DNA of 44,968 nt from an uncultured Pseudomonadota bacterium (GTDB taxonomy: Bacteria; Bdellovibrionota_B; Oligoflexia; Oligoflexales; CAILAO01): NCBI GenBank assembly GCA_903832105.1, contig CAILAO010000667.1:1-44968 (forward strand), in the 5' to 3' direction. The translations under genes and the position numbers were made by a program. Below, in pieces: positions 11,301-26,684 of the stretch. Below the pieces are notes generated by a model. That model saw only the letters and a program-made list of their open reading frames with translations, did no database searches and had not been told where the DNA came from. The stretch's first letter is position 1, and every line of letters starts with the position of its first letter.

Positions 11301-12209
11301 GCCAAGGACTGCGCCACGCTCATTGGCTTGAGTAGGAGTCAGATTTTTGACCTGACGACCAGAAATCAAACCGACTTCGTTTACTGATTCCATGACACTT
11401 GAGATGTATTGTTTTAACTCACCCGTTAACCTTCGGTTCGCGTCCTGTTCAGATGGCAATGTAAGGATGACGACAGTTTTGGGTCGTTGTGCCGCTATAC
11501 TGAAAAGTAACTGCAGAAATGTTGGAAATTGGCTGTTGACATGCGCTCGCGGATGATCGTCTTTAAGGGCTAAAGCGCGGGCCATGTAGAGCACTAACTC
11601 GTCAATAAGGATAAGAAGTGGTGCCTCCCCTAGAGATTTGGCAAAGTTTTCTCTCCCAGGCGCTATACCTTGCTCATCGTTGATTCTGATCAGTTCATAT
11701 CCCTTAATACCTCCAGCAAGTGCAGAGATTTGCCCCCACGGCGTGTATACCTTTAAGTTTGCGTCTTCAATGACATGATTTGTCCCGCTCAGCGGATCGG
11801 AGTCCTCACCAACGAAGGCTGCTATCTTGACTGTTCCCGCATCAGGGAACTGCGAAATATTAAAATCTCTTAGACAATGACTAAGCCGCGATCCTTCTCT
11901 TGCTGCATGCACGGCAGCAATTAAACTGTGCGTTTTGCCACCACCAAATCCGGTTTCTAAAAGAAACACGGGCGTGCCACCATCCTTTCCTGCCAAACGC
12001 TCAGTCACATCTTTGATTAATTGTTTAAGGTTCGCAGTCGGATAGGTGCCTCGGAAAAAACGTTCTGGGTTAAGATAATCCTGATGAGTGCCAGCGCGAG
12101 AAATGATAACGTCCCAAAGGTCTGCGGCGAAGATTGCGTCGGGTAACTCCCCCGCTAACACCTCTGGACGAGGTACGCATGTCTCAAAGATTGAGGGTAC
12201 CTTACTCAT
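8397..12209 (-). CDS. large P-loop ATPase, DUF499-like
   Basis: Walker A GFGGGKTHS and Walker B LLILIDELV. The ORF is open to 12326, but ATG 12209 (MSKVPSIF) overlaps the stop of the upstream HTH gene as ATGAGTAA. Confidence 0.8.
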   Translation of the reverse strand: MSKVPSIFETCVPRPEVLAGELPDAIFAADLWDVIISRAGTHQDYLNPERFFRGTYPTANLKQLIKDVTERLAGKDGGTPVFLLETGFGGGKTHSLIAAVHAAREGSRLSHCLRDFNISQFPDAGTVKIAAFVGEDSDPLSGTNHVIEDANLKVYTPWGQISALAGGIKGYELIRINDEQGIAPGRENFAKSLGEAPLLILIDELVLYMARALALKDDHPRAHVNSQFPTFLQLLFSIAAQRPKTVVILTLPSEQDANRRLTGELKQYISSVMESVNEVGLISGRQVKNLTPTQANERGAVLGKRLFDSYSTADAPKVAELYSEYYEKQRNAGAIIDGRAFEPNYREQIQSCYPFHPELVSLFAERLGDIPDFQATRGALRLVAKLIRYVWANRISIPNTLMLHPFHVDLTRNEIRDEILSRLGRMSFERGLEADVVSISATTHSMNVETSWPWKAASESALVTFLHSLPDGSKGITSPEVALSVGRPDVDLSYVPKALEETEKHAWYMRKEGSHYLFRTRASVNKRFQERLVDLRQRPAEVKSVLEDWIKEIFSNFNVFKIIPFPSDQTAIPDHSDHLRLAIIHFDKEVGAVAPGASERLNFVRTLFNNRGSSSEPRIYRNNLLFLLAEGTKTEGLKEAVRSVMAWQHVQEDIIQEQKNVATTENVNFAEMKKKARDNVSGVPAEFMALEDDLIKVKENIGIHEVNVRSRILESYRVLACPRAGSSENESLFSSTPASVLECYRVDFGEVPEGPDSLRRTARRAAAEAPLLQCLRNNGKLVPESTPAQPLVLAAEIIKRPPLWSEAETHISTADVWDRLRREPDLPIVLKQTDILPTFLAGLATNPDPLWSYYDKQEKKLYTRVNSAELNPTLSDTTFLYDVAAAIRENIRPVSTVKTSDISDNLWPREGTLHKPTVSTLKLLDAAKQSPLFPVLPDRPVLWRAMQEGVRENRWILFQKGLNIAVGSQELNEWPSQPRFDDSIELWLYQPAIEKGIYPRRSGPDISDAPSVLQTAINVKARCWSAGSLSMNMEDVERNARNIWRSLTRFDLEEIIKEGIRERVWFLWKKNDEGEFYTDADVHHVRFDPAGEYHLVESASEKLIENLAPLRPGFGPQPIERVNTPRLALTEVWEALAPSPDIRVAELTISVSDRESFDNTLRAAWADRPKNALIHSTLSAQGRRNTGEKDESINLMYEGKFENIQTLMAPIWSFSSGELQVSITATLKFDDPPKLSDQHLEGFRTSLMNADQGQIAVRLVPARRRNRSKN

Positions 12210-12426
12210 CCTGGGATCCTCCATGCAACCCACGCACAGTTCCGTATTTTTTGGATTCGATCCATTGCGCCAGATCAGTGCGAATAAAGCGCCATTGTCC
12301 TCGTACTTTGAAAGCGGGGATTTCACCTCCCTGCACCATCGTATAAACGGTTTTTTCGACCACTCTAAGCATCGCCGCTACCTCTGGCACTGTGAGGATC
12401 TCGGGCTGGATCCAGGTATTTGACAC
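12202..12426 (-). CDS. excisionase/MerR-type HTH DNA-binding protein
   Basis: ILTVPEVAAMLRVVEKTVYTMVQGGEIPAFKVRGQWRFIRTDLAQWI matches the excisionase-family HTH pattern. GTG 12426 is preceded by GGAAGGA. The ORF is formally open to ATG 12513. Confidence 0.7.
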   Translation of the reverse strand: MSNTWIQPEILTVPEVAAMLRVVEKTVYTMVQGGEIPAFKVRGQWRFIRTDLAQWIESKKYGTVRGLHGGSQDE

Positions 12427-12695
12427 TTTGGATTTCCTTCCATTATTTTCTAAAGGATTCCAAAGTATCAACTTTGATGAACTACGCCAAGAAAAATGCA
12501 TAAAAATTGCCAACTTTCAACATATTCCTTGTTACACAAAGGTCTCACCTCAAGGGTGGTTTGATCAAAAAATAGGCAGCTATGCCATTTGGTGCGTTTT
12601 TTCTGAAATGAACCCAAAAACTGTCAGGCTTAAGAAATGCTTCCGCAAGATCCGAGGACACTGTTGAAGTGGTTTTGCAATCAAATCCCGATAAA

Positions 12696-13493
12696 TTAGT
12701 ACCTGAGTAATGGACCGTTTTTGATCCACAGCAGAGTTAACCCCAACTCAATTTGCGGGAAATACCTTGCTTCTTCGAGCAGTGTTTCTTCCTGCAGATA
12801 ACGAGGCAGATCTTCAATCCAACAATTAGCATCGACGGAAGTCATATAATTCGCGGTTTTCTGACCATGCGATGATCTATAGGCTTCGCTGAACTGGTCG
12901 AGTGTTCCAGAGGAAATCCAATAATTCAGCTCAGAAAATGCTTTCGATTTTAAAGAATACTCCGTTTTGTTTTTTGAAAAGAAAACCAAGGCACATGCTT
13001 CATCAGTGGTATCTATATATCGTCTTGCTGCAGCGGAAAGAGAAACAGAAAATTCGGATGCCAGATTTTCGACTTCAGCCATCGAGGGTTTTCTCCGAAT
13101 TGCTTCTGGCCGAAATAACATGTCTGGCATTAGAAGTTCGGCTGCAAATTCATTAGCCTCTATTTCGAGATGATGTCCGCTGACCGTGGACCAACGAATC
13201 ATATCCTTTTTATCGCAGTAGAATGAGTTTCTTTGCTCTTTGTGCATCTCAAAATGACCGAGTTCATGCGCTATAGAAAATCGTTGCCGGGTAACATAAG
13301 GTTCATGAGAATTGATCGTAATAATCCCGCGCCCGTTGAATACTAAAAGCATAGCCTCCGATGTCCTTTGAGGTGCATAACGGACTCTAGCTCCCCGGTG
13401 TGCGCAAATAGCTTCGAGCTCAAGAAGGATTTCCTTCGAATCCAAAGAAAGATCTCTAATCAAATGCTGAGCCTTGACTTTGCCTAACGTCAT
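12696..13493 (-). CDS. ImmA/IrrE-family (CapP-like) zinc metallopeptidase
   Basis: HEXXH motif in FSIAHELGHFEMH, followed by about 120 aa of C-terminal domain as in IrrE/CapP. ATGA overlap with the upstream gene. Confidence 0.85.
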   Translation of the reverse strand: MTLGKVKAQHLIRDLSLDSKEILLELEAICAHRGARVRYAPQRTSEAMLLVFNGRGIITINSHEPYVTRQRFSIAHELGHFEMHKEQRNSFYCDKKDMIRWSTVSGHHLEIEANEFAAELLMPDMLFRPEAIRRKPSMAEVENLASEFSVSLSAAARRYIDTTDEACALVFFSKNKTEYSLKSKAFSELNYWISSGTLDQFSEAYRSSHGQKTANYMTSVDANCWIEDLPRYLQEETLLEEARYFPQIELGLTLLWIKNGPLLRY

Positions 13494-13906
13494 TTTTTTT
13501 CCGCAGGTAATATTCCTAAAATTTCACAATTCTCCAAAAAAGTGCGAATTTCATCCTCTGTCAACGTATCGCCTTTCTTGTTTCTATTGAAACACAATGC
13601 TTGTTGTTGCAGATCTGGACCGAGTGCACCACTCATCAATTTGTCAAAGAACTCGATTGGATTGGCAATAACACCATGTTTCTGCGACTTAAATGATTCC
13701 GCGACAATTTTGGCTGGCTTCAACCATGAATGTTTCAGCTCCTCACGTTCTGCATCAATCAGCTTGGTTACGCGATTGATCAAACGGTCGAGGTTGATGC
13801 CCTCTCTCTGAAAAACCTCCCGAAAAGCCTCTGTATCTGGATTCTCATGATCAAGGAGAATACCTAGCAACAACCTATGAATCTTATCGTTGCTGTTCCT
13901 ACTCAT
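13490..13906 (-). CDS. hypothetical 138-aa protein with no HTH recognised; partner of the peptidase
   Basis: ORF overlaps the upstream stop by 8 nt (ATGAGTAG) and the downstream start by 4 nt. Confidence 0.7.
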   Translation of the reverse strand: MSRNSNDKIHRLLLGILLDHENPDTEAFREVFQREGINLDRLINRVTKLIDAEREELKHSWLKPAKIVAESFKSQKHGVIANPIEFFDKLMSGALGPDLQQQALCFNRNKKGDTLTEDEIRTFLENCEILGILPAEKK

Positions 13907-14576
13907 TGAGTTCTCCTCCGATATTCAAGGTTTCCAAGATTCTACGAGCTTTTCTTGCAATCCTCCGGCGGGTGTTTCTAACTGCTGTTGGGGTTGAATC
14001 AGAAATCGCCGCGACAGAAATATTTGAAATTTTTTTATCAGTTTCTGCAAGTTCTTCCATTGCCAACAAGCAGAGAGTCTCTTCGCCGTCTGGTTCACAA
14101 GATTTATGCAATTTTTCAAGAAAAGTCCGAGAATACTCCTGCTGTTGGGATGCAATCTCCGCAGCTATCAGATTTGTCTCTGGGTCATCATCTCCTGGTA
14201 AGTCATTTATAACGCCTTCACCATTTTCAATTTGCTGTTTGGTGTCATAACGGTTTCTTCTGTGAGCCGCAGAGTAGACGAGATTGTAAACATCACTGTC
14301 GATAACATTCTTCAAGAATGCGTCCAGATCATCGCATGAGGGGTCCCAATGACGGTATCCAGAGCCTTCGATTCCGGCTTTAATACCAGCGAGTGTTTTT
14401 TCTATAGCACCACCAACAACATCTTCGATTTCCAATCCTTTGGGCAAACTCTCTGGCACACGCCAATAGTAAGATCTAACGCAACTCTGCGCATAGATGA
14501 GCAAATTACCCGTAAGCAATTTCCAATCAGCATCCAAGAATGCCGACAATTTCGAATTTTGCTTTGAATCGTCCAA
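13899..14576 (-). CDS. sigma-70/ECF-like protein (region 2-like and region 4-like segments)
   Basis: LEIEDVVGGAIEKTL...LDAFLKNVIDSDVYNLVYSAAHRRNRY is region-2-like. ISDSTPTAVRNTRRRIARKARRILETL is a region-4-like HTH. TTG start lies 9 nt after GAGG. Confidence 0.55.
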   Translation of the reverse strand: MDDSKQNSKLSAFLDADWKLLTGNLLIYAQSCVRSYYWRVPESLPKGLEIEDVVGGAIEKTLAGIKAGIEGSGYRHWDPSCDDLDAFLKNVIDSDVYNLVYSAAHRRNRYDTKQQIENGEGVINDLPGDDDPETNLIAAEIASQQQEYSRTFLEKLHKSCEPDGEETLCLLAMEELAETDKKISNISVAAISDSTPTAVRNTRRRIARKARRILETLNIGGELNE

Positions 14577-14845
14577 TCAGGTTAACCTCGCTACTAATGT
14601 TGACTGCTCAACAGACCCCCTTTTTGACCATCGCACCGCAAAAAAAATATTTGGCATACAACATAAATAAAAACGGGAAGTTAAAAAAATTTTCCATCGA
14701 AAACGGTCAAAATGATCCATTCCTCAGCAGCACTTAATGAGAGCACATTGGCATCCGTTAATCACCTAATTTTTTCGGGAGAAACGTCAGGTTCTTAGCA
14801 AACAATAATGGTTCGCAAAAACAGCTACTTATCAATGGAGGAAAC

Positions 14846-15982
14846 ATGTCAATCTCGTACGTTTCAGACACAACGAAGTTTATTCTTTGGGGAAAAGCGG
14901 CTGGCCGATGCGAATACTGCAACCGCCCAATTTACTTTGATAATTTGACAAAATGCGAATTCAATACCGCCTATATTGCGCACATAATTGCATCTAGAGT
15001 TGACGGACCGAGAGGGCATCCAACCGAGTCCGAGCGCTTGCGTGGTGACATATCCAACCTGATGCTGCTTTGTGATACGCATCATCGTCTGATTGATAAA
15101 GATGATGTGGAGGGGCATCCTGTGGACCTTCTGCGGGACATGAAGAAGAAACATGAAGAGCGAGTTTTCCTGCAAACCAACGTTTCCAACAAACAAAGCC
15201 ATGTAATTCTTTACGGCGAAAAAGTCGGATACAATAACTCCAACCTCACCTGGGAAAATGCGTTTGAGGCGATGACTCCAGAAAAGTACCCAGCTGAGAA
15301 ACAACCGATTATACTTGGGATCAGGAATAGCGCTCTGTGTGACGACGATCCAGAATATTGGGAGAAAGAGCGCAGAAACTTGAATCTGAACTTTGATCGG
15401 CTGGTGCGCCGCCAAGTTGAGGATGGACATATTGACCATGTCTCAGTTTTTGCGATTGCCCCTCAGCCTCTTCTTATTGAACTAGGGCGTTTAATCTCAG
15501 ATATTAGACCTGCGGAAGTGTACCAACTACAACGAGAACCAACCACATGGCGATGGCAGAATCATCCTGAAGTCAGCTTCCGACTGATACCGCCCGTCAA
15601 GGATCATGACGTTGTTGCCCTGAACATTTCACTGAGCGCAACGGTATCCGACGACAGAATATTCAATGTCTTAGGACCAAAATTGTCTATCTGGACACTT
15701 ACAATAGATTCACCGCACAACGACTTCTTGAAAACAAAAGAATCTTTATGCGGTTTTCGAAAATGCATGCGCACGGCATTCGATAAAATCAAAGCCAAAC
15801 ACGGGCACAACACTGTCCTGCATGTGTTTCCAGCAATGCCTGTGTCTGCGGCAGTCGAATTTGGCAGAGTTTGGCAGCCAAAAGCTGACATGGAAATGGT
15901 CATTTATGATGAGAATCGTAAAATCGGGGGATTTGTGGAAGCCTTCACGCTTCGCGGTCATGATTTTTTGCGCAAGGAGTGA
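14846..15982 (+). CDS. cap5: CBASS effector, HNH endonuclease fused to a SAVED-like sensor (Cap5-like)
   Basis: N-terminal HNH motifs CEYC..AHIIASRVDGPRGH..NLMLLCDTHHRLID, then about 270 aa of C-terminal domain. Lies directly upstream of a CD-NTase. GGAGGA RBS. Confidence 0.75.
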   Translation: MSISYVSDTTKFILWGKAAGRCEYCNRPIYFDNLTKCEFNTAYIAHIIASRVDGPRGHPTESERLRGDISNLMLLCDTHHRLIDKDDVEGHPVDLLRDMKKKHEERVFLQTNVSNKQSHVILYGEKVGYNNSNLTWENAFEAMTPEKYPAEKQPIILGIRNSALCDDDPEYWEKERRNLNLNFDRLVRRQVEDGHIDHVSVFAIAPQPLLIELGRLISDIRPAEVYQLQREPTTWRWQNHPEVSFRLIPPVKDHDVVALNISLSATVSDDRIFNVLGPKLSIWTLTIDSPHNDFLKTKESLCGFRKCMRTAFDKIKAKHGHNTVLHVFPAMPVSAAVEFGRVWQPKADMEMVIYDENRKIGGFVEAFTLRGHDFLRKE

Positions 15983-15988
15983 AAACAC

Positions 15989-17110
15989 ATGTATAAGCTA
16001 ACATCTGAGAACCTGGGACGCCTCTTGAATGAGCTGTACGAACATCTTGACATTCCACCAGAGAAACTGTTGCTTGCAAAAGAAAAATACATACATCTTG
16101 GGCAGTGGTTAAATCAAGATGCCGCTACAAATTTCAGAAATAGTTCTGAACTATATCTGCAGGGCTCAGCACTTCTAGGGACAGGAATACTCCCGATAAA
16201 ATTTGGAGACGAATTCGATTTAGACCTTGTCTATCGACGTGATATTCAAAAAGAATCAATCACTCAGACCGACTTAAAAAGGCAGGTTGGCGACCAGTTG
16301 GGGAGATATGTAAGCTACCTCTGTAATTCCAAGGATCTTGATATTCCCACCTTGGAGGAGGGCAAGCGATGTTGGACTCTTCGATATTCTGGGCGGTTTC
16401 ATATGGACATTTTGCCTGCGCTTCCTGATCCAGCATCTGAGTCTTTAATAAAACCCACAGACGGCATTTTGATCACAGACAAAGATCTTTCAAAGTGGCA
16501 ATTTAGCAATCCAAAAGGATACCACGTTTGGTTTCGTCAATCGATGATACACACATTGAATGAAAAGAGGTTGGCGTTGGCGAAATCGGCTAACGTTTCT
16601 GTGGAGGCAATCCCTGAGGATACTGTCAAAACAACCTTACAGAAAGCGATTCAAATCTTGAAACGTCATCGGGATTCGTGTTTCGAGGGAAACCCCAAGA
16701 ATAAGCCGGCTTCTACAATAATTAATACTCTTGCTGCCCTTGCATACAATAACAATGACGACATTGTTAATGATCTTCACCACATTGTGAATAACATGGC
16801 AAAGCATATCGAGACTCGAGGAAATGAATTATGGGTTCCAAATCCGATAAATCATAAGGAGAACTTTGCCGACCGATGGAGAGATAACAAGGAAAAGGCA
16901 GATGAATTTTTCCGATGGTTAGATTTGGCGCACGATACGTTTTCGATGCTGGCGATTGAAAATAACGAAAACAGTATTGCAAATCTGCTGTCGAAATCTT
17001 TCCGTATCGAAGGTGCTGAAAAGATTGCGAAATCGGCATATACACGTGCCGCGTTGGCAGCAGCAGCCAGCACGGTCACAAAAAAAACAGATCCGTGGAG
17101 TCGATCATAA
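15989..17110 (+). CDS. cGAS/DncV-like nucleotidyltransferase (CD-NTase)
   Basis: LQGSALLGTG...GDEFDLDLV (GS + DxD) and RFHMDILPA (third acidic residue). AAGGAG RBS. Confidence 0.85.
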   Translation: MYKLTSENLGRLLNELYEHLDIPPEKLLLAKEKYIHLGQWLNQDAATNFRNSSELYLQGSALLGTGILPIKFGDEFDLDLVYRRDIQKESITQTDLKRQVGDQLGRYVSYLCNSKDLDIPTLEEGKRCWTLRYSGRFHMDILPALPDPASESLIKPTDGILITDKDLSKWQFSNPKGYHVWFRQSMIHTLNEKRLALAKSANVSVEAIPEDTVKTTLQKAIQILKRHRDSCFEGNPKNKPASTIINTLAALAYNNNDDIVNDLHHIVNNMAKHIETRGNELWVPNPINHKENFADRWRDNKEKADEFFRWLDLAHDTFSMLAIENNENSIANLLSKSFRIEGAEKIAKSAYTRAALAAAASTVTKKTDPWSRS

Positions 17111-17111
17111 C

Positions 17112-17765
17112 GTGATTTTTGCATCTTCACATTTAAAAGATATTGAGTCAGCAATCAAACCATACCCTGCGTTGAGATTGATCAGTAATGGTTTTCCAGA
17201 AATAGTCGGCACCTGGCATGTGCAACACCAAGGCGAGATCTTGGTGAGCTACGAGATAAGGATAACCTTTGACGCAGAATATCCTCATTCGCTTCCAAAA
17301 GTTTACGAGGTATCAGGCAAGATAGCACGATCTCCCGATATGCACCTCAATCCTCCGGATTGGCATGCTTGCCTTTTCGTTTCGCATCAGCGTTGGGAGA
17401 TTTGGCCTATCGGTTCACCGTTTGGATATTTTCTGGATCTTCCGGTTCATAATTTTTTCTTGGGCCAAGCTCATTATGCGGCAATCGGTTATTGGCCGGA
17501 TCATAGAGAAAGGAGTCACGGTGACTGCGGGATAATCGAATATTATCGAGAAAAATTTAACTGCCTTGATCCAAATGTGATCCTAAATCTCTTGACTTCT
17601 CAGATTCCTGACAAGATACCTCGTCAACGCAGATGCCTATGTGACAAACAGAAGCGTCTTAAGTACTGTCATGGCCCAGTTGCAAAATTGATTCAGAAAA
17701 ACCAAGAACCTGTTTTGTTGCGGCAAGCGATAGAAATATTTCGACAACAAGCAGCCAAAAAATAA
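17112..17765 (+). CDS. prokaryotic E2-like (UBC-fold) protein with a SEC-C-like Cys/His tail; type II-short CBASS accessory protein
   Basis: EYPHSLPKVYE...MHLNPPDWHACLF resembles the E2 HPN..C active-site motif. C-terminal CLCDKQKRLKYCHG. GTG 17112 sits 2 nt after the CD-NTase stop. The ORF extension back to 16956 overlaps the CD-NTase gene. Confidence 0.7.
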   Translation: MIFASSHLKDIESAIKPYPALRLISNGFPEIVGTWHVQHQGEILVSYEIRITFDAEYPHSLPKVYEVSGKIARSPDMHLNPPDWHACLFVSHQRWEIWPIGSPFGYFLDLPVHNFFLGQAHYAAIGYWPDHRERSHGDCGIIEYYREKFNCLDPNVILNLLTSQIPDKIPRQRRCLCDKQKRLKYCHGPVAKLIQKNQEPVLLRQAIEIFRQQAAKK

Positions 17766-24890: not shown

Positions 24891-26651
24891 CTACTTTACG
24901 CAAATGGTGCCTGGTGTCGCAGAGCTGCTGTCAACATCGGACGTTAAACCGGTATCCACCAATCTAATCATCCACCGGCCAGTTGACCCCGACGTTCCGC
25001 TCCAGTAGCCAATGTTCCCGTCAACAATCAAACCAGTCGTGCCATTTGAGATGCCTTGAATATAAGCTCTTTGAAGCTCCTCTTTCTCGGCAAGTCGCCA
25101 TCCAGACACCGCATTAACAACCAATCCGGTGCAATAACTATTGGCATTTGCCCAGGTCTTTTGACCACCACTTTTTGTCCAAATAAGGCCGCTAATGCGG
25201 TCTTTTATCATGCAGTCTGCGGGATAAACCGAACATGTCGTGCTGCCGCTATGAGTAATATCTTGGTAGCTTTCGCCATAACATTTGTCAGCAGCGGGCG
25301 CTACACCACTTCGATTTCTACATTTCATATTTGCCTGACCAGTTGTTGTTCCCACAACCACGTCCTTTCTAACGTCCCAGGGATCTGGAGCATCTGTGCT
25401 GAGCGTTCCAGTCAAACCAAAAATTGCGACACCGCTTTTGATGTTTTCCTCAACAATTGTTGCAGAGCCGCCTCTTTGATATCGATTTCCAGCCGCATCG
25501 AACCATTCGAAGTCGGAAGCACTTTTAATTTTGGCGTCAAAAGTGGCGAGATCAAGATCGGCTGTGCCTGTCGCGCCAATGAGAAGCGCCGAGGATGATG
25601 GATAGATGCCCGTTACTCCGGCGACAATGGCGTCTTTCTTTATGTTGGATGCAACCAGATTTGTGAAGCTTGCGGATCGAAATGCTGCAGTGGTTATACA
25701 ACCCTGTTGATTGTTATCGGTGCAGTTTGTATGGGACTCTTGAATCACATTCCCTGAAATTCCCGCGATGGCGACTCCGGTTTTTACATTTCCTGGCACC
25801 AGATTTGATATATCCGCAGCCTTAAACGTTGCGGTAGTTATGCAGCCTTGCTGACCATTATCATTGCAGTTGGTGTGAGATTCTGGGGTGATGTTACCGC
25901 TCACTCCCGCAATCTCCACTCCACTTTTGATATTGGAGGCGGATAGATTTGTTAAATTTGCAGACTTGTAAGTGGTGTTGGTTAAGCAATTGGTTTGACT
26001 ATTATCTGAACAGCTTGGATAGCTCGCATAATTTCCAGTCACTCCCGCGATTATAGTGCCGCTTTTAATATTTTCAGGTAGCAAGTTTGATATGTCGGCG
26101 GATCTGTAATTCTCCGTTGTGACGCAGTTTAATAGGCCATTGTTCAAGCATTTGCCGTATGGACCCGCATAGGTTCCAGTAACTCCAGCTGTTGTCACAC
26201 CAAGAGCAATCTTGCTGGGAACTAGACTAGTCGTACTTACTGCAACATATTTGCCACCGACAGAACAGTTAACTTGCCCCTCCGTTATACAGGGAATATT
26301 TACCGTATCTTGATATGTTCCGGTTATACCCGAGATAATAATTCCCACCTTAATATTTTGCGGAAGCAAATCTTTTAAGTCTGGTTGTTGCAATGGTTCC
26401 GGCATTTGACCTTCGCCTATAGAACCGTCGCATTTCATAAATTTAACACCAACCAAAACTTTTGAAAGATCGGGATCCGCGCAATCAGGATCAGTCAATT
26501 TTGCTGCCTTATCGCTAGTGATGGCATCGTTTGGATCCTTTTTCGAATTTTTGTCTGTGTCTGTATTTGTCGTTTGATCCTGCGGAACTTGGTTTTGAAG
26601 GCCGCAGCCGAACACGAGCAAAAAAACCACTGCTATTAGAATATGTTTCAT
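24891..26651 (-). CDS. repeat-rich lipoprotein with a C-terminal DUF1566 (Lcl C-terminal-like) domain
   Basis: MKHILIAVVFLLVFGC lipobox. About seven 48-aa repeats (NL.p.NIKsGv.IAGvtGn...C.dn.q.C). C-terminal RISGLIWTK..TWANANSYC..VSGWRLAEKEEL. ATG 26651 lies 9 nt after GAGGAGG. Confidence 0.8.
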   Translation of the reverse strand: MKHILIAVVFLLVFGCGLQNQVPQDQTTNTDTDKNSKKDPNDAITSDKAAKLTDPDCADPDLSKVLVGVKFMKCDGSIGEGQMPEPLQQPDLKDLLPQNIKVGIIISGITGTYQDTVNIPCITEGQVNCSVGGKYVAVSTTSLVPSKIALGVTTAGVTGTYAGPYGKCLNNGLLNCVTTENYRSADISNLLPENIKSGTIIAGVTGNYASYPSCSDNSQTNCLTNTTYKSANLTNLSASNIKSGVEIAGVSGNITPESHTNCNDNGQQGCITTATFKAADISNLVPGNVKTGVAIAGISGNVIQESHTNCTDNNQQGCITTAAFRSASFTNLVASNIKKDAIVAGVTGIYPSSSALLIGATGTADLDLATFDAKIKSASDFEWFDAAGNRYQRGGSATIVEENIKSGVAIFGLTGTLSTDAPDPWDVRKDVVVGTTTGQANMKCRNRSGVAPAADKCYGESYQDITHSGSTTCSVYPADCMIKDRISGLIWTKSGGQKTWANANSYCTGLVVNAVSGWRLAEKEELQRAYIQGISNGTTGLIVDGNIGYWSGTSGSTGRWMIRLVDTGLTSDVDSSSATPGTICVK

Positions 26652-26684
26652 GTGTGTATTCCTCCTCACAAATAATTTGGTGGC

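What the first reader, a model, noticed from the sequence alone, without database searches (positions are those of the whole stretch)
12696..14576. Sigma-like protein, 138-aa unknown and ImmA/IrrE (CapP-like) peptidase wedged between two immune operons: a possible protease-gated sigma switch
Seen: three minus-strand ORFs overlap by 8 nt (ATGAGTAG, 13899-13906) and 4 nt (ATGA, 13490-13493). The last has HELGH plus an IrrE-like C-terminal domain. The first has sigma-70 region-2-like (EIEDVVGGAIEKT...FLKNVIDSDVYNLVYSAAHRRNRY) and region-4-like (TPTAVRNTRRRIARKARRIL) segments. The middle protein has no recognisable HTH. The trio starts 269 bp divergent from cap5 and ends 182 bp upstream of, and co-directional with, the HTH-DUF499 operon. 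Its first junction uses the same ATGAGTA(A/G) overlap design as the HTH/ATPase junction at 12202-12209. Established: ImmA/IrrE peptidases normally cleave a partner XRE-type repressor (ImmR, DdrO). The CapH/CapP repressor-protease pair, encoded divergently from CBASS operons, induces them after DNA damage. Inference: here the repressor slot is filled by a sigma/anti-sigma-like pair. Proteolysis could therefore release a dedicated sigma factor that switches on one or both flanking defence operons. I am not aware of such a three-gene module being described.
Basis: partly seen in the sequence, partly recalled or inferred. Interest (0 to 1): 0.8.

Follow-up and report, generated by a model that had tools for sequence, protein, structure and literature searches.

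The report
Sigma-factor version of CapH/CapP immune switch
Next to a CBASS anti-phage operon sits a conserved three-gene regulator (a sigma-factor-like protein, a small partner that keeps only the protease-cleavable tail of the known repressor CapH, and the DNA-damage-sensing protease CapP), which probably switches immunity genes on by releasing a dedicated sigma factor rather than by removing a repressor.

Summary
Three tightly overlapping minus-strand genes lie 269 bp divergent from cap5.

- **Peptidase (265 aa):** a full-length CapP. It hits the PADLOC capP model at 1.2e-55 and PDB 7T5T at 6e-16, and it keeps the HExxH motif and the cysteine switch.
- **225-aa protein:** a sigma-70-family protein with two domains, like an ECF sigma. 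The AlphaFold model has pLDDT 88 and nearly all top Foldseek hits are sigma factors. Some homologues hit Pfam Sigma70_r2/r4.
- **138-aa protein:** it has no HTH. Its C-terminus matches the CapH C-terminal domain, including the near-invariant Arg of the CapP cleavage site (F|R in CapH, N107|R108 here).

The trio is conserved in order and coupling in about 75 of 85 CapP-anchored loci from many phyla. Four of four loci sampled from the sigma side also carry it.

The conserved neighbours are divergent immune operons (Bub-type ubiquitin-like operons and CBASS). The downstream genes are not conserved.

A nested palindrome lies between the trio and the immune operon. It reads as back-to-back promoters. 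Sigma-less loci with canonical CapH lack it.

The anti-sigma role and the cleavage are inferred, not shown.

Lau et al. 2022 noted in one sentence that 24 CBASS systems have a sigma gene beside capH and capP. The module is therefore not unseen, but its logic is undescribed. Verdict: a new variant of a known kind.

The parts
13899..14576 (-). 225-aa sigma-70-family protein with two domains (ECF-like): a sigma2-like domain at about residues 1-107, a disordered linker at 108-131, and a sigma4-like domain at 132-216.
   Evidence: phmmer against 1.84 G representatives found 99 homologues. Of 51 homologues scanned, 8 hit Pfam Sigma70_r2 (best 2.6e-6), 6 hit r4_2 and 5 hit r3. A PDB profile search gave a colinear match to sigma-H 3mzy, E 0.12. 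The AF2 model has pLDDT 88.4. Nearly all of the top 50 Foldseek PDB hits are sigma factors; the best is E 7.6e-4, prob 1.0.
13490..13906 (-). 138-aa all-helical protein. It has a novel N-terminal region (about 1-95) and a CapH-like C-terminal domain (about 97-130). It is the proposed CapP substrate and anti-sigma factor.
   Evidence: None of 45 family members hits a Pfam HTH. The PADLOC capH model hits 20 of 45 members through its C-terminal part. An HMM built only from sigma-linked members finds the CTD of canonical HTH_3 CapH proteins at E 1.4e-3 to 2.8e-2. The AF2 model has 7 helices, pLDDT 75, pTM 0.39. Foldseek found no significant PDB fold match.
13580..13594 (-). C105-F-N-R108-N109. This is the window's version of the family motif [F/Y/H]-R-[N/K] and the predicted CapP cleavage site (N107|R108).
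   Evidence: Translation confirmed. R108 is one of only four positions at 90% or more conservation in the family. In E. coli CapH, CapP cuts F82|R83 in the first CTD helix and the R83A mutant is uncleavable (Lau et al. 2022).
12696..13493 (-). CapP: an ImmA/IrrE-type Zn metallopeptidase with HTH and GAF C-terminal domains. HExxH is at 13254-13268 and the cysteine-switch Cys93 at 13215-13217.
   Evidence: PADLOC capP 1.2e-55 over positions 9-241 of 242. Pfam Peptidase_M78 4.6e-21. PDB 7T5T Thauera CapP E 5.8e-16, aligned over residues 67-257 with HExxH and the switch Cys conserved. C93, H76, E77, H80 and E110 are invariant in the 25 closest homologues.
14592..14669 (.). Nested palindrome, proposed to be a bidirectional promoter. 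Outer arms: GCAGTCAACATTAGTA (14607->14592, minus strand, towards the sigma gene) and GCATACAACATAAATA (14654-14669, plus strand, towards cap5). Inner core: 14621-14644 (TTTTTGCGGTGCGATGGTCAAAAA on the minus strand).
   Evidence: inverted repeat I1; the pattern occurs exactly twice here, plus one 2-mismatch hit elsewhere, against 0.28 expected. The same architecture is seen in 44 of 52 related intergenic regions. It is absent from sigma-less canonical CapH loci.
14846..17765 (+). Divergent CBASS operon, the presumed target: Cap5 HNH-SAVED effector (14846-15982), CD-NTase (15989-17110) and an E2-like protein (within 16956-17765).
   Evidence: Pfam SAVED 1.6e-50. PADLOC Effector 1.1e-148, Cyclase 8.6e-105, E2 3e-48. 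Across loci the conserved neighbours of the trio are divergent upstream immune operons.

Best explanation
This is a sigma-factor variant of the CapH/CapP 'controller of adjacent pathway' module.

Shown:
- The peptidase is a CapP. Characterised CapP homologues are activated by single-stranded DNA produced during DNA damage or infection.
- The 225-aa protein belongs to the sigma-70 family.
- The 138-aa protein has lost the DNA-binding HTH of CapH. It keeps CapH's C-terminal dimerisation and CapP-recognition domain, including the conserved Arg of the cleavage site.
- The three genes are translationally coupled. They are conserved as a unit beside divergent immune operons in many phyla.

Inferred:
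- The N-terminal helical region of the 138-aa protein holds the sigma factor inactive, acting as an anti-sigma.
- When CapP is activated by ssDNA, it cuts the 138-aa protein at N107|R108. This destroys its dimer or its stability and frees the sigma factor.
- The sigma factor then directs RNA polymerase to a back-to-back promoter pair at 14592-14669. One promoter drives cap5/CD-NTase/E2. The other drives the trio itself, giving positive feedback.
- The HTH_17-DUF499 operon downstream is probably not under its control.
For: CapP identity.

Sigma identity: and (the L032 homologue passes the Pfam Sigma70_r2 gathering score).

Middle protein:
- It has no HTH.
- It has a CapH-like CTD, and the cleavage-site Arg is nearly invariant.
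- The CapH facts (cut at F82|R83, R83A uncleavable, CTD as the CapP recognition element) come from the papers read.

Complementary partner architectures among the CapP-anchored loci:
- HTH_3-CTD CapH never occurs with the sigma gene (L073, L075, L077).
- The HTH-less partner occurs with the sigma gene in about 75 of 85 loci.

Four of four sigma homologues sampled independently sit in the same trio.

Gene junctions overlap or are 10 nt or less apart in 49/54 and 62/65 loci.

One natural sigma-middle fusion ORF exists (L053).

Neighbours:
- The nearest upstream gene is divergent in 60 of 73 loci.
- Recurrent neighbour families are upstream and divergent. They are JAB-ThiF/Multi_ubiq/DUF6527/Prok-E2_E (19 loci), CD-NTases, HORMA/TRIP13/NucC and Sa_NUDIX.

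Cis element:
- TTTGCCA and TGGCAAA are enriched 10-16 fold.
- The nested palindrome has clade-specific outer arms followed by AT-rich hexamers. It lies 38-54 nt before the sigma start codon in most loci.
- It is absent from canonical CapH loci.

Precedent for protease -> anti-sigma -> sigma signalling in immunity: CalpL/CalpT/CalpS and DdvA/DdvS.
Against: - No direct or computed evidence shows that the 138-aa protein binds the sigma-like protein.
- The monomer model is only moderate (pTM 0.39). It resembles no known anti-sigma domain.
- The similarity to the CapH CTD is short, about 35-40 residues, and statistically modest (E 1e-3 to 3e-2).
- In the window the P1 residue is Asn, not the usual Phe/Tyr/His.
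- The window protein itself gives no Pfam sigma hit. Foldseek E-values are modest and TM-scores are low (0.25-0.35), as expected for two flexibly linked domains.
- The inner half-sites of the palindrome have a modal 5-nt spacing in 18 of 44 loci. That would also suit a dimeric DNA-binding protein.
- In the window the half-sites are degenerate (CCGCAAA and GGTCAAA). The inner-to-outer spacing differs by about 3-4 nt between the two sides.
- Four loci with an HTH-less partner show no detectable sigma gene.
Confidence: 0.55

Rival explanations
1. Split-repressor model. The sigma-like protein supplies only a DNA-binding HTH (its sigma4 domain). The 138-aa protein supplies CapH-type dimerisation and CapP sensitivity. 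A 2:2 complex sits on the palindrome and represses ordinary housekeeping promoters. CapP cleavage breaks the dimer and de-represses, exactly as in canonical CapH/CapP, with no sigma activity involved.
For: - The inner motif TTTGCCA-N-TGGCAAA is palindromic, with a preferred 5-nt spacing.
- The CapH CTD is a dimerisation domain, and dimerisation is required for DNA binding.
- The window has a weak sigma70-like promoter match overlapping the core: TTGACC-16-AATATT, 9/12.
Against: - The family keeps a complete sigma2-like domain in addition to sigma4. That is unnecessary for a plain repressor.
- Inner spacing varies from 0 to 10 nt, which is unlike the fixed-spacing operators of canonical CapH loci.
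- The outer arms have promoter-like geometry: about 17-19 nt from the inner half-site to an AT-rich hexamer, with a short leader to the start codon.
- The sigma70-type match in the window is within the chance expectation, 3 found against 4.5 expected. The face-to-face reading does not hold in other loci.
Confidence: 0.2
2. The 138-aa protein is a CapP substrate or adaptor but not an anti-sigma. For example, it could be a co-activator or chaperone of the sigma, or CapP could act directly on the sigma-like protein, whose disordered 108-131 linker is a plausible protease target.
For: - No similarity to any known anti-sigma domain.
- The sigma model has a long low-confidence linker.
- The N-terminal motif L-x3-G-x-D-P of the middle family weakly resembles helix-hairpin repeats (CW_7 repeats, 5i8l), whose function here is unknown.
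Against: - The best-conserved element of the middle protein is the CapH-type cleavage motif. This points to it, not the sigma, as the substrate.
- Tight translational coupling of sigma and partner and a fusion ORF are what sigma/anti-sigma pairs typically show.
- The sigma linker is not conserved in sequence.
Confidence: 0.12
3. The trio is an ImmR/ImmA-like switch of a mobile element, or a stand-alone stress regulon. It merely lies between two defence operons and does not regulate them.
For: - ImmA/IrrE peptidases also control prophages and ICEs (introduction).
- In some loci (e.g. L004, L087) no recognisable defence genes flank the trio.
Against: - Recurrent, divergently oriented immune operons lie beside the trio in dozens of unrelated genomes.
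- The conserved intergenic element faces both ways.
- The protein matches the CapP profile over its whole length.
Confidence: 0.05

Closest known systems
CapH + CapP (Lau et al. 2022, EMBO J; bioRxiv 10.1101/2022.04.27.489752; mechanism update 10.64898/2026.05.16.725639)
   Same: - The peptidase is the same: HExxH, cysteine-switch Cys, and HTH+GAF C-terminal part.
- The partner gene sits immediately upstream, often overlapping.
- The partner has a CapH-like C-terminal domain with the x|R cleavage motif.
- The module is placed divergently beside CBASS, Bub and other immune operons.
- Lau et al. list 24 CBASS systems where a sigma-70 gene accompanies capH and capP.
   Different: - The partner has no XRE HTH and therefore cannot be a CapH-type repressor.
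- A third gene encoding a sigma-70-family protein is an obligatory member.
- The cis element is a nested palindrome with promoter-like geometry, not fixed-spacing HTH operators.
- The predicted logic is activation by sigma release, not de-repression.
CalpL-CalpT-CalpS of type III CRISPR (as summarised in bioRxiv 10.1101/2025.07.01.662501)
   Same: - A three-part immune signalling logic: signal-activated protease cleaves an anti-sigma, which releases an ECF-type sigma for a transcriptional response.
   Different: - The protease there is Lon-SAVED activated by cA4, not an M78 metallopeptidase activated by ssDNA.
- CalpT and the 138-aa protein show no detected similarity.
- The genomic context differs: CRISPR ancillary genes versus a CBASS/Bub-adjacent regulator.
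DdvS/DdvA ECF sigma / anti-sigma of Myxococcus xanthus (PMC11506125)
   Same: - A dedicated ECF sigma controls a CBASS-containing defence island.
- An anti-sigma is proposed to be removed by proteolysis.
   Different: - DdvA is a transmembrane protein with a zinc-bound three-helix bundle and a periplasmic CHAT domain.
- Release there is proposed to go via RseP.
- Here all parts are cytoplasmic and the protease is CapP.
IrrE/PprI-DdrO (Deinococcus) and ImmA-ImmR (ICEBs1, phages)
   Same: - The peptidase superfamily is the same.
- Cleavage of a partner near its C-terminal dimerisation region is triggered by DNA damage. ssDNA binding by PprI/IrrE is cited and PMC10904395.
   Different: - Those partners are XRE-type HTH repressors.
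- No sigma factor is involved.

Membership tests
CapP (ImmA/IrrE M78 peptidase of Cap regulators) | Zn-metallopeptidase motif HExxH plus a downstream Glu | tested here: met
   H76-E77-L-G-H80 and E110 are invariant in the 25 closest homologues. They align to the active site of Thauera CapP 7T5T. Pfam Peptidase_M78 4.6e-21.
CapP (ImmA/IrrE M78 peptidase of Cap regulators) | Full-length architecture: peptidase + HTH + GAF-like C-terminal domain | tested here: met
   PADLOC capP model matched over positions 9-241 of 242 at 1.2e-55. The 7T5T alignment spans residues 67-257.
CapP (ImmA/IrrE M78 peptidase of Cap regulators) | Internal cysteine-switch loop (present in about a third of CapPs) | tested here: met
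   C93 lies 17 residues after the first His, as in E. coli CapP (H97, C114). It aligns with the Cys of 7T5T in 'SFQCSDADM' and is invariant in the clade.
CapP (ImmA/IrrE M78 peptidase of Cap regulators) | Activation by single-stranded DNA and cleavage of its partner | not testable with these tools
   Needs biochemistry. Known only for the E. coli and Thauera proteins.
CapH | N-terminal XRE-type helix-turn-helix DNA-binding domain | tested here: not met
   No Pfam HTH family in the window protein or in any of 45 family members. Canonical CapH proteins from sigma-less loci scanned the same way give HTH_3 at about 1e-16.
CapH | C-terminal two-helix dimerisation domain carrying the CapP cleavage site (F82|R83 in E. 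coli) | tested here: inconclusive
   The PADLOC capH model hits 20 of 45 members through profile positions ~37-100. The A5 HMM finds canonical CapH CTDs at E 1.4e-3 to 2.8e-2. The Arg is nearly invariant. The AF2 model shows two C-terminal helices, 97-108 and 117-129. The match is short and the window has Asn at P1. Cleavage was not tested.
CapH | Encoded immediately upstream of capP in the same operon | tested here: met
   4-nt ATGA overlap in the window. The junction is 10 nt or less, or overlapping, in 62 of 65 loci.
Sigma-70 family (group 4 / ECF-like) | Sigma2 domain (regions 2.1-2.4) | tested here: met
   8 of 51 homologues hit Pfam Sigma70_r2, best 2.6e-6. The L032 homologue scores 25.8 bits against a cut-off of 24. 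Foldseek hits to sigma factors cover the full length. The window protein alone gives no Pfam hit.
Sigma-70 family (group 4 / ECF-like) | Sigma4 domain with the region 4.2 HTH | tested here: met
   6 of 51 homologues hit Sigma70_r4_2. The profile aligns colinearly to sigma-H 3mzy, including its region 4. The model has a four-helix C-terminal domain at 132-216.
Sigma-70 family (group 4 / ECF-like) | Binds core RNA polymerase and directs it to a cognate -35/-10 promoter | tested here: inconclusive
   A conserved bipartite, bidirectional motif with promoter-like geometry is found in 44 of 52 loci. No transcription data exist, and a repressor-operator reading is not excluded.
Anti-sigma factors (known classes: ASD/ZAS, NepR, FlgM, CalpT) | Sequence or fold similarity to a known anti-sigma domain | tested here: not met
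   The PDB profile search gives only coiled-coil or designed-protein noise. Foldseek's best E-value is 2.4. One member of 45 hits Pfam AsiA at 0.0068, which is not meaningful.
Anti-sigma factors (known classes: ASD/ZAS, NepR, FlgM, CalpT) | Co-transcribed with, and physically binding, its sigma | tested here: inconclusive
   Co-transcription and translational coupling are met: an 8-nt overlap in the window and 49 of 54 loci. There is one fusion ORF.

The most novel reading that the evidence does not exclude
A widespread activator-type immune regulator found in at least ten phyla. The ssDNA-sensing protease CapP cleaves a CapH-derived anti-sigma in which the HTH has been replaced by a sigma-binding domain. 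This releases a dedicated ECF-like sigma factor of a previously unclassified family. The sigma fires a portable bidirectional promoter that drives both its own operon (positive feedback) and whatever immune operon lies on the other side (CBASS, Bub ubiquitin-like systems and others).
Probability: 0.5. Interest if true: 0.75.

Novelty: new variant of a known kind. Interest (0 to 1): 0.62.

Why it matters
The known regulators encoded beside immune operons (CapW/BrxR, CapH+CapP, CapK+CapS) all work by removing a repressor.

If the sigma-release model holds, this module is a second logic built from the same sensor. It would be positive, amplifiable control by a private sigma factor. That predicts very low basal expression and switch-like induction of toxic abortive-infection systems.

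It would also show how a repressor's protease-sensitive tail was re-used as a degron on an anti-sigma.

It defines a new sigma-factor family and a candidate cognate promoter. These could serve as an orthogonal, DNA-damage-inducible expression part.

It also affects annotation. The 'CapH' of sigma-linked systems is not an HTH repressor. About a quarter of the trios studied here sit beside Bub-type ubiquitin-like operons, whose regulation is of current interest.

Tried and rejected
1. Word-indexed homology searches with the 225-aa and 138-aa proteins returned only themselves. Both families are too divergent for that index. The exhaustive phmmer search and CapP-anchored locus mining were needed.

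2. A genome scan with the single CapP sequence found nothing. It worked with an alignment.

The key interaction therefore remains untested.

4. Foldseek and a PDB profile search of the 138-aa family gave no meaningful hit.

5. Iterative HMM counting of CD-NTases from the window seed found only its own clade, 6 loci. It was replaced by all-vs-all clustering of neighbours plus labelling of representatives.

6. I considered reading the inner half-site TTGCCA as a housekeeping -35 of face-to-face promoters. It fits the window weakly, but no -10 follows at 16-18 nt in the other loci, so it was rejected.

7. I considered a sigma-54-like reading (TGGCA...TTGC). It was rejected because the order and spacing of the elements are wrong.

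8. I considered a terminator or hairpin reading of the palindrome. No terminator-like sites were found and the stems are AT-rich.

9. No sigma-like ORF could be found in L051, L060, L076 or L081 even at E 50. This is unexplained.
Full report
**1. The observation**

The three minus-strand ORFs are as described:
- 13899-14576: 225 aa, TTG start preceded by GAGG.
- 13490-13906: 138 aa.
- 12696-13493: 265 aa.

They overlap by ATGAGTAG and ATGA. Public gene calls on the same metagenomic contigs give identical products. The window is an ENA/Logan metagenome contig and its organism is unknown.

The gap to cap5 is 269 bp. The '182 bp' to the HTH gene depends on the longest ORF. The public 74-aa call starts at GTG 12426 and fits the HTH_17 domain better, which makes that gap 269 nt.

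- Plus strand: a CBASS operon with an HNH-SAVED Cap5 (PADLOC 1.1e-148), a CD-NTase (8.6e-105) and an E2-like protein.
- Downstream on the minus strand: an HTH_17 gene and a DUF499/HmaC-like ATPase (5.7e-80).

**2. The peptidase is CapP**

- It matches the PADLOC capP model end to end at 1.2e-55, and Pfam Peptidase_M78 at 4.6e-21.
- Its only relative with a solved structure is Thauera CapP 7T5T (E 5.8e-16, residues 67-257).
- HExxH (H76, E77, H80) and the cysteine-switch Cys (C93) are aligned with 7T5T. Both are invariant among the 25 closest homologues.
- According to Lau et al. 2022 and Calloji et al. 2026, CapP is activated by ssDNA. It recognises the C-terminal dimerisation domain of CapH and cuts it between F82 and R83.

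**3. The 225-aa protein belongs to the sigma-70 family**

- Alone, it hits nothing in Pfam, NCBIfam, PADLOC or PHROGs. The word-indexed search returned only the protein itself.
- Exhaustive phmmer against 1.84 billion representatives found 99 relatives, 29 of them at 1e-10 or better.
- In an alignment of 51 relatives (A1), 8 members individually hit Sigma70_r2 (best 2.6e-6), 6 hit Sigma70_r4_2 and 5 hit Sigma70_r3. One further homologue passes the Pfam gathering score for r2.
- The family profile aligns colinearly with sigma-H 3mzy.
- The AlphaFold model built on A1 is confident (pLDDT 88.4). It shows two four-helix domains joined by a disordered linker.
- In Foldseek against the PDB, nearly all of the top 50 hits are sigma factors: SigH, sigma32, sigmaS, sigmaA, sigma28 and the ECF sigmas RpoE, SigH and AlgU. 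The best is E 7.6e-4 with probability 1.0.
- TM-scores are low, as expected when two domains are flexibly linked.
- I accept 'sigma-70 family, ECF-like two-domain architecture'. RNAP binding is untested.

**4. The 138-aa protein is a CapH tail on a new head**

- It has no database hit and no HTH. None of 45 family members hits any Pfam HTH family.
- 20 of the 45 hit the PADLOC capH model, through the C-terminal part of that 103-position profile.
- The best-conserved feature of the family is [F/Y/H]-R-[N/K] followed by E..S..DL...L.D...L. The Arg (R108 here) is one of only four positions at 90% or more conservation.
- Among the CapP-anchored loci, three lack a sigma gene: L073, L075 and L077. 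Their partner is a canonical CapH, with HTH_3 at about 1e-16 plus a tail '..AFRDF..LS..D...L'.
- An HMM made only from sigma-linked middle proteins finds exactly that tail at E 1.4e-3 to 2.8e-2.
- The middle protein therefore shares the CapH C-terminal domain, including the position where E. coli CapH is cut and where R83A blocks cutting.
- In the window the motif is C-F-N-R108-N, so P1 is Asn instead of an aromatic residue.
- The AF2 model (35-row alignment A5) is all-helical with 7 helices, pLDDT 75 and pTM 0.39. Its last two helices are at 97-108 and 117-129.
- The model matches no PDB fold significantly, and no anti-sigma domain.

**5. The trio is a conserved unit**

- CapP homologues closest to the window (38-44% identity) sit behind a ~210-225-aa gene and a ~134-146-aa gene with no Pfam hits.
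- A scan of one genome per GTDB species with the CapP alignment gave 80 loci.
- With HMMs of the three families, 75 of 85 loci carry the sigma-like gene and 83 of 85 carry the middle gene. These always lie in the order sigma-middle-CapP on one strand.
- The loci come from MAGs labelled Bdellovibrionota, Chloroflexota, Bacteroidota, Nitrospirota, Acidobacteriota, Myxococcota, Desulfobacterota, Patescibacteria and others.
- Junctions overlap or are 10 nt or less apart in 49/54 (sigma-middle) and 62/65 (middle-CapP) loci.
- Sampling from the sigma side gives the same picture. Four of four homologues, down to E 1e-4, sit in the same arrangement.
- One locus (L053) encodes the sigma and middle domains in a single 366-aa ORF. 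It is a single MAG, so an assembly error is possible.

**6. What the trio is linked to**

- The nearest upstream gene is divergent in 60 of 73 loci.
- Clustering all neighbours shows that the recurrent families are almost exclusively upstream and divergent. Downstream genes are not conserved.
- Labelling cluster representatives gives the following:
  - JAB-ThiF E1, Multi_ubiquitin, DUF6527 and Prok-E2_E, the Bub-type ubiquitination-like operons. The E1 cluster is in 19 loci.
  - Several CD-NTase clades (at least 15 loci).
  - HORMA, TRIP13, NucC, Sa_NUDIX and E2.
- This mirrors the published association of CapH+CapP with CBASS and with 31% of Bub operons.
- For the window, it points to the divergent CBASS operon as the partner, not the HTH_17-DUF499 operon.

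**7. A conserved cis element**

- In 52 intergenic regions between the sigma gene and the divergent operon, TTTGCCA occurs in 16 (1.5 expected). Its complement TGGCAAA occurs in 13 (0.8 expected).
- The two motifs form an inner inverted repeat with variable spacing of 0-10 nt (mode 5). It is flanked on each side, about 12 nt out, by a second pair of inverted arms.
- The outer arms are clade-specific: GCAGCAT in Bacteroidota, CTCGGTAGA in Chloroflexota, GGAGCAT, CGGCAT or CCGGT in others. They run into AT-rich hexamers such as TATATA or TAGAAT.
- 44 of 52 regions fit this nested pattern. The right half-site usually ends 38-54 nt before the sigma start codon.
- Read outward on each strand, this looks like a -35-like [T/C]GG[C/T/A]AA[A/T], roughly 17-19 nt, then a -10-like element. 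That gives two back-to-back promoters.
- A conserved -35 with group-specific -10 elements is the usual pattern among ECF sigma groups. This last point is my own knowledge, not a tool result.
- Sigma-less canonical CapH loci instead show classical repeated fixed-spacing operators, such as TTAACCATTGGTTAA, and no such element.
- In the window the outer arms are GCAGTCAACATTAGTA (14607->14592) and GCATACAACATAAATA (14654-14669). The pattern occurs nowhere else exactly. The inner core is at 14621-14644.
- The window's half-sites are degenerate, and the two sides differ by about 3-4 nt in spacing.
- The region upstream of the HTH_17 gene lacks the motif. It has its own 20-nt inverted repeat at 12420-12471.

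**8. Mechanism**

The best-supported model is described under 'best explanation': ssDNA-activated CapP cleaves the CapH-tailed partner and thereby frees a dedicated sigma for a bidirectional promoter.

- Shown: the identities of CapP and of the sigma family, the CapH-like tail, and the conservation of the trio, its neighbours and the cis element.
- Inferred: binding of the partner to the sigma, cleavage at N107|R108, sigma-dependent transcription, and positive feedback.
- Main rival: a 'split CapH' repressor in which the sigma-like protein only supplies DNA binding. The palindromic inner motif keeps that alive.
- I could not run the decisive complex prediction.

**9. Comparison and novelty**

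- As a family member: the peptidase is a CapP. The 138-aa protein fails the defining HTH test for CapH and should not be filed as CapH, although it shares its tail. The 225-aa protein is a sigma-70-family member of an unnamed subfamily.
- As a mechanism: the closest analogues are CalpL-CalpT-CalpS (protease cleaves anti-sigma, sigma released) and DdvA/DdvS controlling a CBASS-CRISPR island.
- The co-occurrence of a sigma gene with capH and capP was recorded in one sentence and a table column by Lau et al. 2022.
- Searches of the held literature found no analysis of it. That library lacks most subscription-journal papers.
- New as far as I can tell, but computational only: the HTH-less partner, the breadth of the trio, its link to Bub operons and the promoter-like element.
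- I rate this a new variant of a known kind, interest about 0.6.

Noticed in passing
window 14592-14669 (and L001-L084 intergenic regions): A nested palindrome with promoter-like geometry lies between the sigma gene and the divergent immune operon. The inner arms are TTTGCCA/TGGCAAA-type half-sites. The outer arms are clade-specific and followed by AT-rich hexamers. It is found in 44 of 52 related loci and is absent from canonical CapH loci.
   Followed up: yes
window 12420-12471: A 20-nt inverted repeat (80% complementary, 12 nt apart) overlaps the GTG start (12426) of the HTH_17 gene. Two facing sigma70-like promoter matches (10/12 each) lie on it. It is probably the HTH_17 protein's own operator for the DUF499/HmaC-like operon, independent of the trio.
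   Followed up: partly
window 12202-12513: The HTH_17 gene is probably 74 aa (GTG 12426, as in public gene calls) rather than the 103-aa longest ORF. The Pfam domain starts at residue 40 of the long ORF.
   Followed up: yes
L053:4746-5846: A single 366-aa ORF in an Acidoferrales MAG carries the sigma-like domain followed in frame by the middle-protein domain. Its relative L063 has two overlapping genes. This is either a natural fusion or an assembly/frameshift artefact.
   Followed up: partly
L039 (contig JBDGUQ010000080.1, 5.3 kb): A complete sigma-middle-CapP trio lies on a contig binned as Candidatus Aenigmatarchaeota (archaeon). A bacterial-type sigma factor makes no sense in an archaeon, so this is probably a mis-binned bacterial contig.
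   Followed up: no
window 13490-13906, residues ~25-58; family alignment A3/A5: The N-terminal conserved motif E-E-x3-L-x3-G-x-D-P-x3-L of the middle-protein family gives a weak repeated match to the CW_7 repeats of the Cpl-7 cell-wall-binding module (PDB 5i8l, whole-sequence E 2.8e-5 from three weak stretches). It also gives very weak matches to SAP/HeH-like hairpins. The significance is unknown.
   Followed up: no
L051, L060, L076, L081: These loci have an HTH-less middle-type partner plus CapP, but no detectable sigma-like ORF even at E 50. In L076 a 944-aa divergent gene ends about 80 nt upstream, leaving no room for a sigma gene.
   Followed up: partly
L012-L090, upstream divergent genes: The commonest partner of the trio is not CBASS. 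It is a Bub-type ubiquitination-like operon (JAB-ThiF E1, Multi_ubiq, DUF6527, Prok-E2_E). The E1 cluster is present in 19 of about 80 loci.
   Followed up: partly
window 14690-14703 and 14772-14784: Within the presumed long 5' leader of cap5 there is a second small palindrome (TTTTCGATGGAAAA on the minus strand) and a further pair of 13-nt inverted arms. No function has been assigned.
   Followed up: no
window 25637-25652 (- strand): GCATCCAACATAAAGA is a 2-mismatch match to the outer-arm motif, inside or near the ORF 24891-26669. It is probably chance (0.28 such matches expected per window).
   Followed up: no
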